Assembly: GCA_965243855.1 (NCBI GenBank)
Contig: CBDEWE010000002.1
Span: 31,659 to 95,658, forward strand
DNA: 64,000 nucleotides
Source of the DNA: an uncultured Candidatus Binatia bacterium
Lineage (GTDB): Bacteria; Desulfobacterota; Binatia; Bin18
Direction of reading: 5' to 3'
A model generated the notes under the pieces. It was not told the origin of the DNA, did not search any database, and saw only the letters and a list, made by a program, of their open reading frames with translations. Positions 54,021-55,474 of this stretch are shown piece after piece; position 1 is the first letter of the stretch, and each line of letters begins with the position of its first letter. The translations under genes and the position numbers were made by a program.

Positions 54021-54283
54021 TCAGCACCTAGCCCTAGCCCGTAGTGTAGTGGGTAGGCGATAGTAGGATTGCTAAGCGGGACAGAACCAGTAGCCAGGAG
54101 GAGGTATGCAAGCATATACTCGACGCATAAGTTTGCGGAATCGAGGTCCACAACGAGGAGAGCATTGTATAAGTGCGCAGTCCAGCACAATCCTTACCAG
54201 TACCGATCTGGGGTTCGCGCTGGTTCCCGTCGAGAGGATGTCTACTGCTGATCAGTAGGCATTAGCTAGCAATAGAGAATCCA

Positions 54284-55330
54284 ATGCCATTAGTTCGAGA
54301 CCTCATCTACTTCGATATCGACAAGGCGTCGTCGCTGCTTAGCCAATTCGAAGGCGGTCTCCCCGGTGAGACACAAGAGAAAACTGAAGCGAAGAAAGAC
54401 GAGCGAAACCTACGTAAATACGACATCCCGCTCTTTAAGCCGGAATTCGGCGGGATCACCACTGATACGCAGTCCCAGATGCAAACCCGCGTTTTGCACC
54501 ACGATTTGATTCAACGGTTGGAGCACCACCTCTTCAACGCCAACCGCGGACTTGAGATCAATCAAGCCTTCGAGGAAGTACCGGACGATATTTCAGCGAT
54601 TCATGACAAGGTTGCTGCTGCGACCTATCTAAAGGCCACGGGATGGGCCATTCTCGAGGACTTTGAACGCCTCAAGACCATGGCGGCGAAATTCAATCAG
54701 TTGGCTGAATTCTTCGGTCGGTGTGCGATGGCGAATCTCGAACAGAACGAAGAATACTCAAGGTTGATGGTAGAGCTCGATGCCGCCCGAAAGCAAGCCA
54801 CAAAACAAAAGGACCGCAACAAGAAAGTACCTCAACTCCAGCAGTTGAAGAAACTAGAGGAGCAAATGCGGGCTGCTGTTCAGCAGCAGATTGGCGGTCA
54901 AAAGCTCGACGACTGGCTGCTTGAAGGGATTGGGTTCTTCATCGACTTTTTCATGCCGGGTCGTATTCTACTGACCGTGTACCCGTTCCAGAACCACAGA
55001 GACTTTCACGTCCTCTCGAATCTCAAACGCGATTGCTTTGTCGATGGCGACCTCAATACCGTTCTTCAAGCCTACGGCAATCGACCAAATCTTCAATTGT
55101 CGGTTCTAGGCCTTGTTACTTCGGTGCCGCCCGATGGAGAAAATCCATTCGATCCGTTTGGCGGAGACAATTCAGAAACCGTCCCGGAAGGCCGCGCCTT
55201 TGAGCACGGATTCCGAAGCATTTTTCGGCAAATGGATGAACTGTTCAAGTTCACAAACTATAGTCGTTACCCCAATGTTACAGTCCACCCGTTGGCCGTA
55301 TTTCGCGAGCTCGGCGAAACGGCCAGCTAA
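54284..55330 (+). CDS. Integron-cassette-borne hypothetical protein (DUF6414-like N-terminus)
   Basis: RDLIYFDIDK..SLLSQ..GG; central coiled coil; stop codon lies inside the attC R'' box. Confidence 0.75.
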   Translation: MPLVRDLIYFDIDKASSLLSQFEGGLPGETQEKTEAKKDERNLRKYDIPLFKPEFGGITTDTQSQMQTRVLHHDLIQRLEHHLFNANRGLEINQAFEEVPDDISAIHDKVAAATYLKATGWAILEDFERLKTMAAKFNQLAEFFGRCAMANLEQNEEYSRLMVELDAARKQATKQKDRNKKVPQLQQLKKLEEQMRAAVQQQIGGQKLDDWLLEGIGFFIDFFMPGRILLTVYPFQNHRDFHVLSNLKRDCFVDGDLNTVLQAYGNRPNLQLSVLGLVTSVPPDGENPFDPFGGDNSETVPEGRAFEHGFRSIFRQMDELFKFTNYSRYPNVTVHPLAVFRELGETAS

Positions 55331-55415
55331 CAAGTGCGTGAACTGGAGCGCTGAATCCGGCGGCATCTGAAATCAGCGCGTAACGTCGCCTCCCGGTTAC
55401 GCTAGGTTGTTAGCT
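55325..55415 (+). other. Integron attC site (91 bp)
   Basis: R'' AGCTAAC and R' GTTAGCT are exact complements; L boxes GTGAACTGG/CCGGTTAC with an extrahelical G; GCGCTGA/TCAGCGC inner stem. Confidence 0.85.
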
Positions 55416-55474
55416 AAGGATACGGGAGACGTTGCAGGATTCTTCAGATCAGCGAAAAGATTGCAACCCACCTC

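What the first reader, a model, noticed from the sequence alone, without database searches (positions are those of the whole stretch)
54262..55416. Solitary integron gene cassette with intact attC and no integrase in the window
Seen: a complete 91-bp attC with the gene's TAA inside R''. The cassette begins with TTAGCT at 54262 (the expected R' remainder, preceded by A rather than G), giving a TTAGCTA direct repeat at both ends. Established: IntI can insert cassettes at secondary sites, and cassettes have been found to encode anti-phage genes. Inference: the 348-aa DUF6414-like protein, sitting in a defence island, is a good candidate new defence gene.
Basis: partly seen in the sequence, partly recalled or inferred. 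Interest (0 to 1): 0.65.

Follow-up and report, generated by a model that had tools for sequence, protein, structure and literature searches.

The report
Stranded integron cassette in defence island
A single, intact integron gene cassette (one gene of unknown function plus its hairpin recombination site) sits alone, with no integron around it, inside an anti-phage defence island on a mobile element. This is a natural example of a recently described way for such cassettes to spread, not a new kind of element.

Summary
Window 55325..55415 (+) is a genuine attC.

- **attC family.** A 20-base piece of its 3' arm occurs exactly in 36 metagenome contigs. These carry a conserved ~90-bp attC family, with up to ~18 copies per 11 kb.
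- **Link to integrons.** In two contigs the arrays lie next to integron integrases that pass TIGR02249.
- **Model score.** A covariance model built without the window scores the site at 71.8 bits (E 2e-18). That is mid-range for array copies, and it is the only significant hit in 64 kb.
- **Left boundary.** In the nearest relative (85% aa), similarity starts at TTAGCT (54262), where that contig has an attC 3' end.
- **Gene family.** DUF6414 homologs are flanked by attC sites in 9 of 18 loci from at least four phyla.
- **No integron integrase in the window.** There is no IntI gene or remnant.

This is therefore a SALIN (single attC lacking integron integrase; Loot et al.). It most likely arose by IntI-mediated insertion at a non-att site. 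That step is inferred: no empty site was found, and the base before the junction is A, not the consensus G.

The surrounding island is real (BilABCD, ThsB-like TIR, LmuA). DUF6414 is the family reported for one protein of the two-gene Dodola system. This protein fails PADLOC's models and has no partner gene, so a defence role is plausible but untested.

The parts
54262..55409 (+). Gene cassette in the strict sense (1148 bp). It runs from the TT after the crossover point to the G of its own R' box. GC is 51% against 61% for the window.
   Evidence: Similarity to L005 (85% aa relative) starts exactly at 54262, where L005 has an attC 3' end ...GGTTACGCTAAACG|TTAGCT. The right end is defined by the attC model. 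GC.
54262..54283 (+). 22-nt leader beginning with TTAGCT, the cassette's own R' remainder. TTAGCT is the exact complement of the AGCTAA portion of R'' AGCTAAC; with the G of R' the pairing is complete. No promoter lies inside the cassette.
   Evidence: The promoter scan finds only a weak site (9 of 12) at 54091..54120, outside the cassette.
54284..55330 (+). DUF6414 ORF of 348 aa. It is intact and aligns over its full length with homologs.
   Evidence: Pfam PF19952 at 69 bits. 210 homologs. AF2 model with pLDDT 77.6 and no PDB or BFVD fold match. No PADLOC hit.
55325..55415 (+). attC site, 91 bp. R'' 55325..55331; L'' 55336..55343 with extrahelical G55340; further arm pairing AACTGG/CCGGTT and GGAG/CTCC; L' 55396..55402; R' 55409..55415.
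   Evidence: CM R2 71.8 bits, E 2.4e-18. nhmmer 69.3 bits. Family covariation: 14 of 23 pairs compensatory, 0 of 500 shuffles reach the observed score. Folds.
54261..54262 (.). Left junction A|TT. Non-att DNA is joined to the cassette at the IntI crossover position.
   Evidence: No attC-like sequence lies upstream.
55410..55416 (+). TTAGCTA to the right of the crossover. On the insertion model this is target DNA. It repeats 54262..54268.
54025..54261 (.). Left spacer of unknown origin. It ends in the hairpin GTCTACTGCTGATCAGTAGGC (54240..54260).
   Evidence: No similarity to any fetched locus. Similarity to the DUF3800 module stops at about 54024 to 54038.
55417..55513 (.). Right spacer of unknown origin, between the cassette and the breakpoint shared with L021.
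53035..55513 (.). Variable segment of the island that holds the DUF3800 module and the cassette. The syntenic contig L021 has a different 2.35 kb between the same two breakpoints.
52091..53044 (+). 317-aa tyrosine recombinase, not an integron integrase. It is context, not part of the cassette.
   Evidence: Pfam Phage_integrase. TIGR02249 18 bits against a cutoff of 265. BLASTP against IntI gives E 3.5.

Best explanation
**Shown.** Window 54262..55409 is a bona fide integron gene cassette. It has one promoterless DUF6414 gene followed by a structurally intact 91-bp attC. That attC belongs to a conserved family found in integron arrays in metagenome contigs, most of which appear to be marine JGI assemblies. 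It is the only attC in the 64-kb window, which holds no integron integrase, attI or array. It is therefore a SALIN (single attC lacking integron integrase). It lies in a mosaic, variable segment of an anti-phage defence island on what earlier notes of this scan call a conjugative element.

**Inferred, how it got there.** An integron integrase acting in trans recombined the folded bottom strand of the circular cassette's attC with a double-stranded non-att site. This is the 'attG' route of Loot et al. The target would have read ...CAGTAGGCA|TTAGCTAAGG..., which resembles the cassette's own R' box (GTTAGCTA). This event joined A to TTAGCT on the left and G to TTAGCTA on the right. The element then lost contact with any integrase, which stranded the cassette.

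**Inferred, expression.** Transcription must come from outside the cassette. Possible sources are read-through from the co-oriented DUF3800 gene or a weak promoter-like site at 54091..54120.

**Inferred, weaker, what the gene does.** It is a self-sufficient single-gene module, possibly anti-phage or anti-plasmid and perhaps abortive-infection-like. It is distantly related to the DUF6414 protein of the Dodola system. Its conserved acidic and histidine residues (D6, D11, H72-H73-D74, E125-D126) hint at enzymatic activity.
For: **attC family**
- Exact matches of CGTCGCCNCCCGGTTACGCTA occur in 36 metagenome contigs.
- These hold a ~90-bp repeat with variable, co-varying R and L boxes and a conserved extrahelical G.
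- 91.4% of cells are paired. 14 of 23 pairs have compensatory changes. 0 of 500 shuffles reach the observed covariation score.
- Arrays hold up to ~18 co-oriented copies in 10.9 kb (L027).
- TIGR02249 integrases lie divergent from the arrays in L051 (469 bits) and L044 (360 bits).

**The window's site**
- It scores 71.8 bits, within the 23 to 103 bit range of array copies. It is the only significant hit in the window.
- The left boundary coincides with the crossover point in L005.

**The gene as a cassette**
- Homologs are flanked by attCs of other families in L001/L006, L003, L009, L010, L011, L017, L019 and L020.

**Absence of an integrase**
- No IntI in the window.
- No IntI of the L051 type and no other family attC at 80% nt or more in runs X2 and X3, where this contig is at 61x and 127x.

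**Context and literature**
- Defence context: BilA-D, ThsB-like TIR, LmuA.
- SALINs and GWT 'attG' insertion are documented in bioRxiv 10.1101/2022.09.11.507474.
- A review attributes DUF6414 to one protein of Dodola, bioRxiv 10.1101/2024.10.26.620412.
Against: - No empty-site allele was found. The only syntenic relative (L021) replaces the whole 2.5-kb segment.
- The base before the crossover is A, not the G of the GWT consensus.
- The 7-nt identity of TTAGCTA on both sides needs either a target that resembles R' or another history. By chance, the extra five bases would match about 1 time in 1000.
- A generic home-made attC model gave only 12.2 bits, E 1.3.
- Hairpin stability is not exceptional.

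On function:
- No PADLOC hit.
- No fold match.
- No ClpB-like partner gene.
- Half of the homologs sit as lone genes among housekeeping genes, not in defence islands.
- A 94% nt relative in run X1 lacks the same leader and 3' end.
Confidence: 0.65

Rival explanations
1. The cassette is a relic of a cassette array (a decayed CALIN), or a piece of an array moved here by non-IntI recombination such as homologous exchange of the variable segment or transposition. On this view the TTAGCTA after the R' G is the start of a former downstream cassette, and the upstream attC was deleted.
For: - In arrays, the bases after G|TT come from the next cassette and often match R''. Outer R pairs are kept in 17 to 30 of 35 family members. 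That would explain the perfect R''/R' complementarity without needing an R'-like target.
- The A at -1 departs from GWT.
- The segment is a mosaic that is exchanged as a block relative to L021.
Against: - There is no trace of a second attC in the window under either the family CM or the HMM.
- Neither spacer resembles anything in 36 array contigs.
- Similarity to L005 ends exactly at the crossover position. A random deletion would rarely hit that position.
Confidence: 0.2
2. The neighbouring 317-aa Cre/Xer-like tyrosine recombinase, not an integron integrase, runs a capture hot spot next to its own gene, and it placed both the DUF3800 module and the attC cassette there.
For: - The variable segment starts 10 bp before the recombinase's stop codon in both the window and L021.
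- A 32-bp junction sequence (53003..53034) also precedes the DUF3800 module in L023, where no recombinase is present.
- The variable genes are co-oriented with the recombinase.
Against: - The cassette junctions are the canonical attC crossover G|TT. They do not contain the 32-bp junction sequence.
- The recombinase has no IntI signature (TIGR02249 18 bits).
- No BLAST-level similarity to the family's IntI.
- No known non-IntI recombinase uses folded attC sites (established knowledge).
Confidence: 0.05
3. The site is not a recombination site at all. It is a chance imperfect palindrome or a transcription terminator after the gene.
For: - Folding z-scores are only about -1.2.
- The strict structural scan expects 0.8 hits per window.
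- The generic CM gives E 1.3.
Against: - Family CM E 2.4e-18.
- The same repeat follows unrelated genes in arrays beside IntI genes.
- There is no T-run after the hairpin.
Confidence: 0.01

Closest known systems
[quoted passage not shown]
   Same: One ORF plus one attC. No IntI, attI or second attC nearby. The junction lies at the G|TT crossover. The cassette is parked in a genome or mobile element outside any integron.
   Different: The -1 base is A, not G. The target's right half copies seven bases of the R' box. The IntI1 hot-spot motif CRGM at +6 to +9 is absent (TAAG). The host is an uncultured environmental lineage, and the site lies in a defence island.
[quoted passage not shown]
   Same: attC-bearing cassettes without an integrase.
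   Different: A CALIN needs at least two attC sites. Only one is present here.
Homogeneous attC families of chromosomal integron arrays, such as the Vibrio cholerae repeats (my own knowledge)
   Same: The source family is a ~90-bp, highly conserved attC repeated many times in co-oriented arrays next to intI.
   Different: The window holds one stray member of such a family, not the array. The host of the source arrays is unidentified.
Dodola anti-phage system (two genes, dolA and dolB)
   Same: The ORF matches Pfam DUF6414, the family a review attributes to one Dodola protein.
   Different: No match to any PADLOC model. No ClpB-like partner gene here or next to homologs. Here it is a single-gene cassette.
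Phage-resistance integron cassettes ('Mobile Integrons Encode Phage Defense Systems', bioRxiv 10.1101/2024.07.02.601719; title and abstract seen, paper not read)
   Same: Cassettes of unknown function that may encode compact defence genes.
   Different: Those were shown experimentally and lie within integrons. This one is untested and lies outside any integron.

Membership tests
Integron gene cassette / attC site | Imperfect palindrome R''-L''...L'-R' with conserved AAC and GTT triplets, 57 to 141 bp long | tested here: met
   AGCTAAC...GTTAGCT, 91 bp. L boxes are GCGT(G)AAC and GTTACGC.
Integron gene cassette / attC site | Extrahelical bases on the R''/L'' arm that mark the recombined strand | tested here: met
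   G55340 is unpaired. The same G is conserved across the family while the flanking L pairs co-vary.
Integron gene cassette / attC site | Scores as attC in a covariance model | tested here: met
   Family CM R2 gives 71.8 bits, E 2.4e-18. A generic home-made CM R1 gave only 12.2 bits, E 1.3. IntegronFinder's own model was not available.
Integron gene cassette / attC site | The same attC type occurs in arrays adjacent to an integron integrase | tested here: met
   L051 and L044 carry TIGR02249 integrases (469 and 360 bits) next to arrays of this family. L027 has about 18 copies.
Integron gene cassette / attC site | Single, usually promoterless ORF ending at or in the attC | tested here: met
   22-nt leader. 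The TAA stop lies inside R''.
Integron gene cassette / attC site | Recombined by IntI (excision or integration) | not testable with these tools
   Needs an in vivo assay. Contigs of runs X2, X3 and X6 show no joint that skips the cassette, but contigs drop rare variants.
Complete integron | intI gene with attI next to the cassettes | tested here: not met
   No IntI by TIGR02249 or by tblastn with two IntI proteins in 64 kb.
CALIN | Two or more attC sites clustered together | tested here: not met
   One significant hit in the window. The next best is 16.8 bits, inside an ORF 50 kb away.
SALIN | Single attC with CDS and no other att site or integrase nearby | tested here: met
attG-type insertion | GWT at the cleavage point of the target, with the cut between G and W | tested here: inconclusive
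   The reconstructed target is A|TT. W and T fit, but the -1 base is A.
attG-type insertion | An uninterrupted empty site exists in relatives | tested here: inconclusive
   None found. L021 replaces the whole segment. Runs either hold the full locus or have too little coverage.
Dodola system | Protein of the DUF6414 family | tested here: met
   PF19952 at 69 bits against a cutoff of 25, full-length.
Dodola system | Matches a curated Dodola model | tested here: not met
   No PADLOC family matches, even at E up to 10. That PADLOC v2 contains Dodola models is my own knowledge.
Dodola system | Adjacent ClpB-like partner gene | tested here: not met
   The neighbours are DUF3800 and a convergent TIR gene. 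Homologs also lack such a partner.

The most novel reading that the evidence does not exclude
This DUF6414 subfamily is a self-sufficient, single-gene anti-phage or anti-plasmid module. It circulates as an integron cassette across at least four phyla. The attG/SALIN route is a natural way for such cassettes to be permanently 'banked' in the defence islands of conjugative elements. This would feed integron-borne immunity into lineages that have no integron.
Probability: 0.3. Interest if true: 0.6.

Novelty: new member of a known kind. Interest (0 to 1): 0.4.

Why it matters
Solitary cassettes (SALINs) are usually called from a single attC model hit, which is hard to trust. Here the call is backed by three independent lines of evidence:
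- a whole attC family found in arrays next to integron integrases;
- a boundary that matches the crossover point in a relative;
- homologs that are themselves cassettes.

This makes it a clean natural example of cassette escape from integrons into a defence island on a mobile element.

It also nominates a compact, cassette-borne DUF6414 gene for a simple phage-panel test. The gene has no fold match in either structure library searched and no partner gene. Finally, the work provides a cognate IntI and attC family for recombination assays.

None of this changes the current picture of integrons. It adds a well-documented case and one testable gene.

Tried and rejected
- **Rfam.** Scan of 50 to 64 kb at E up to 1 gave nothing.
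- **Folding energy.** It does not discriminate (z about -1.2).
- **Generic attC model.** CM R1, built from 21 attCs of DUF6414-homolog loci, is dominated by GC-rich planctomycete loop sequence. The site scored 12.2 bits, E 1.3, and was not the top hit. I replaced it with the family model R2.
- **Strict R/L-box scanner.** It is insensitive, finding only 1 of about 9 sites in L001, so it was used only for a chance estimate.
- **Empty site or excision.**
  - No joints in contigs of X2, X3 or X6.
  - X10 holds the element at 2 to 4x depth only.
  - X7 raw reads did not map.
  - The closest DUF3800 relatives (L023, L024) share only the DUF3800 module.
  - TIR relatives L021 and L022 do not share the spacers.
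- **Was the cassette inserted into the truncated TIR partner gene?** Rejected. The partner stops at 55514 in both the window and L021, and no remnant lies beyond the cassette.
- **Left flank as a degenerate attC.** No support from the HMM or the CM.
- **tRNA remnant in the left spacer.** None.
- **Structure-based function.** No PDB or BFVD fold match.
- **Profile against PDB sequences.** The polyubiquitin 'hits' have no stretch that passes on its own and were rejected as an artefact of repeats.
- **RNA evidence.** No RNA runs were identified.
- **Taxon of the source arrays.** No names were on record.

Full report
**1. What is in the sequence**

The ORF at 54284..55330 (+) encodes 348 aa. It matches Pfam DUF6414 over the full profile (69 bits, E 7e-19).

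Its TAA stop lies inside AGCTAAC (55325..55331). Seventy-seven bases further on is the exact inverse, GTTAGCT (55409..55415). Between them, GCGT-G-AAC (55336..55343) pairs with GTTACGC (55396..55402), leaving G55340 unpaired.

TTAGCTA occurs at 54262..54268 and again at 55410..55416.

**2. Is it more than chance?**

Structure alone is weak evidence.
- A strict R/L-box scan expects 0.8 such sites per 64 kb, and 0.1 with perfect R pairing.
- The hairpin is no more stable than shuffled sequence (z about -1.2).
- A generic attC covariance model that I built from 21 attCs of other lineages gave only 12.2 bits, E 1.3.
- Rfam has nothing here.

The decisive test was comparative. I scanned public metagenome contigs for a 20-base piece of the 3' arm, CGTCGCCNCCCGGTTACGCTA. 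It matched exactly in 36 contigs, where I estimate chance would give about one.

Those contigs carry a ~90-bp repeat with these properties:
- the same architecture as the window's site;
- a conserved loop;
- a conserved extrahelical G;
- R and L boxes that differ between copies in a compensating way, for example GCGT-G-AACCGG/CCGGTTACGC, CAAT-G-CACCGG/CCGGTGATTG and ATGTT-G-AACCGG/CCGGTTAACAT.

On 35 distinct copies, 91.4% of cells are paired and 14 of 23 pairs show changes on both sides. No shuffle out of 500, and no slid register, comes near the observed covariation.

The repeats stand in co-oriented arrays after unrelated small ORFs. L027 has about 18 in 10.9 kb, L055 has seven and L044 has five.

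In two contigs a divergent gene at the head of the array passes NCBIfam's integron-integrase model TIGR02249: L051 at 469 bits and L044 at 360 bits, against a cutoff of 265. This is therefore an authentic attC family of real integrons.

Two models built without the window score the window's site as follows:
- HMM: 69.3 bits, E 7e-20.
- Covariance model: 71.8 bits, E 2.4e-18, on the + strand at 55325..55414.

That is mid-range for array-borne copies, which run from 23 to 103 bits. The next best hit in the window is 16.8 bits, inside a coding region 50 kb away. The attC is real, intact and the only one in the window.

**3. Cassette boundaries and relatives**

The closest relative of the protein is 85% identical and sits on a 1168-bp contig (L005).
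- It is followed by a family attC (70.5 bits, cut off by the contig end).
- It is preceded by the 3' end of another one: ...CGTCGCCACCCGGTTACGCTAAACG|TTAGCTGGCAATA.

DNA similarity between the window and L005 starts exactly at TTAGCT (54262). The base before it is G in L005 and A in the window. So the left end of the window's insert is the integrase crossover point, but it is joined to DNA that is not an attC.

More distant homologs (33 to 50% identical) are flanked by attCs of quite different families in 9 of 18 distinct loci. These include a planctomycete array of about ten cassettes (L001/L006), Thalassotalea, Halomonas, Neptuniibacter, Salinicola, an NC10 MAG and a Pyrinomonadaceae MAG.

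The other nine are lone genes, with no attC recognised by eye, and no conserved partner gene was seen where neighbours were examined (six loci scanned; called genes). Four (L012, L013, L015, L016) sit beside housekeeping-type genes such as trigger factor, UbiD, acetyl-CoA synthetase and a sulfate permease; L061 follows a ribonucleotide reductase gene, and L007 is adjacent to what looks by eye like a tRNA gene.

**4. Surroundings**

The window contains no integron integrase.
- tblastn with the L051 and L044 integrases finds nothing better than E = 2.
It scores 18 bits on TIGR02249.

The neighbourhood is a genuine defence island.
- PADLOC finds BilA, BilB, BilC and BilD (48987..51901), a ThsB-like TIR (55710..56732) and LmuA (62371..63564).
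- Pfam adds ArdC, an ImmA/IrrE peptidase with an exonuclease, and a RelE/HTH pair.

A syntenic contig, L021, shares the recombinase (87% nt) and the TIR-HTH-RelE block (91% nt). Between the same two breakpoints (window 53034|53035 and 55513|55514) it carries a trypsin-like gene and two small ORFs, where the window has DUF3800 plus the cassette.

The DUF3800 module (53003..54024) recurs at 88 to 91% identity in unrelated contexts. The cassette therefore lies in a mosaic, exchangeable segment. Its immediate spacers (54025..54261 and 55417..55513) match nothing that I fetched.

The TIR's partner gene is truncated at 55514 in both the window and L021. That truncation was not caused by the cassette.

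**5. How it got there**

The facts fit the SALIN/attG route shown experimentally by Loot et al. (bioRxiv 10.1101/2022.09.11.507474). In that route IntI recombines a folded attC with a double-stranded genomic site of consensus GWT. This leaves one cassette with one attC and no integrase. The authors counted 3400 SALINs in 2469 of 21,105 genomes.

The reconstructed target here is ...GTAGGCA|TTAGCTAAGG.... Two details do not fit neatly.
- The -1 base is A, not G.
- The target's right half repeats seven bases of the cassette's R' remainder. Beyond the required TT, I estimate this would happen by chance about 1 time in 1000.

The second detail can be read in two ways. A target resembling the R' box may have attracted the integrase. 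Alternatively, the TTAGCTA is the start of a former downstream cassette, which is the array-relic rival. I could not decide between these.
- No empty site or excision product was found in any run.

In the two samples where this contig is abundant (61x and 127x), there is no other member of this attC family. There is also no IntI gene within 80% nt of the L051 type. The cassette appears stranded there.

**6. What the gene does**

The function is unknown.
- The AlphaFold model is of moderate confidence (pLDDT 77.6, pTM 0.67). It has no match in the PDB or BFVD.
- A profile search of PDB sequences gave only an artefact from repeats.
- PADLOC has no hit, even at E = 10.
- Invariant or nearly invariant D6, D11, H72-H73-D74 and E125-D126 suggest an active site. 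This is an inference only.

A review attributes DUF6414 to one protein of the two-gene Dodola system (bioRxiv 10.1101/2024.10.26.620412). According to the S. thermophilus study, Dodola has been shown to act against Bacillus phage SPP1 (PMC11514479).

No ClpB-like partner gene is present here or next to any homolog examined. The support for a defence role is the island context, the enrichment of defence genes among cassettes (papers listed) and the Dodola link. I put that role at about one in three.

**7. Verdict**

In kind this is already known: a SALIN. It is a new and unusually well-supported member, with an identified source attC family and cognate integrases, and it carries a testable candidate gene. 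Interest is moderate.

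Noticed in passing
window 53035..55513; L021 7219..9569: The segment between the 317-aa tyrosine recombinase and the TIR operon is a replaceable slot. L021 has the same two breakpoints but a trypsin-like gene and two small ORFs instead of DUF3800 plus the cassette. The variable genes are co-oriented with the recombinase in both.
   Followed up: partly
window 53003..53034; L023 about 2597..2628; L021: A 32-bp GC-rich sequence, GCGCGGCGCGGCGCGGTGGCCCGGCTGCGCTA, lies at the 3' end of the recombinase gene. It is shared with L021. It also precedes the DUF3800 module in L023, where there is no recombinase. 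It may be a module junction or recombination site.
   Followed up: partly
window 55270 (run X1 contig); L021 variable segment: A marine-metagenome copy of the gene (94% nt) diverges at 55270 into ATCTGTAAGTCCCTGATTTTCTTAGACCAC. A near-identical GTAAGTCCCTGATTTTCCTAGACC lies in L021's variable segment. This may be the end of an unidentified mobile element.
   Followed up: no
L025 to L060 (for example L027, L044, L051, L055): A previously unseen (to me) and highly conserved ~90-bp attC family in metagenome contigs. Arrays hold up to about 18 cassettes per 11 kb, with two linked integron integrases. The host lineage was not identified.
   Followed up: partly
window 55475..55705 (-); L022 5750..6925: The gene after the ThsB-like TIR is only the first 64 codons of a 391-aa TIR_2 protein that is intact in L022. 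The truncation point (55514) is the same in L021.
   Followed up: yes
window 54240..54260: A hairpin with an 8-bp stem, GTCTACTGCTGATCAGTAGGC, directly abuts the left cassette junction. Its arms resemble GTCTAAC and GTTAGGC, each lacking one base. Its meaning is unknown.
   Followed up: no
window 58502..58660; L022 9592..9750: A 159-bp stretch is 90% identical to the spacer between a BrnT toxin gene and a resolvase gene in L022. This is another shared piece of mobile-element DNA.
   Followed up: no
window 5745..5824 (-): A weak hit of the attC family model (16.8 bits, E 0.047) inside a GC-rich ORF. Probably chance.
   Followed up: no
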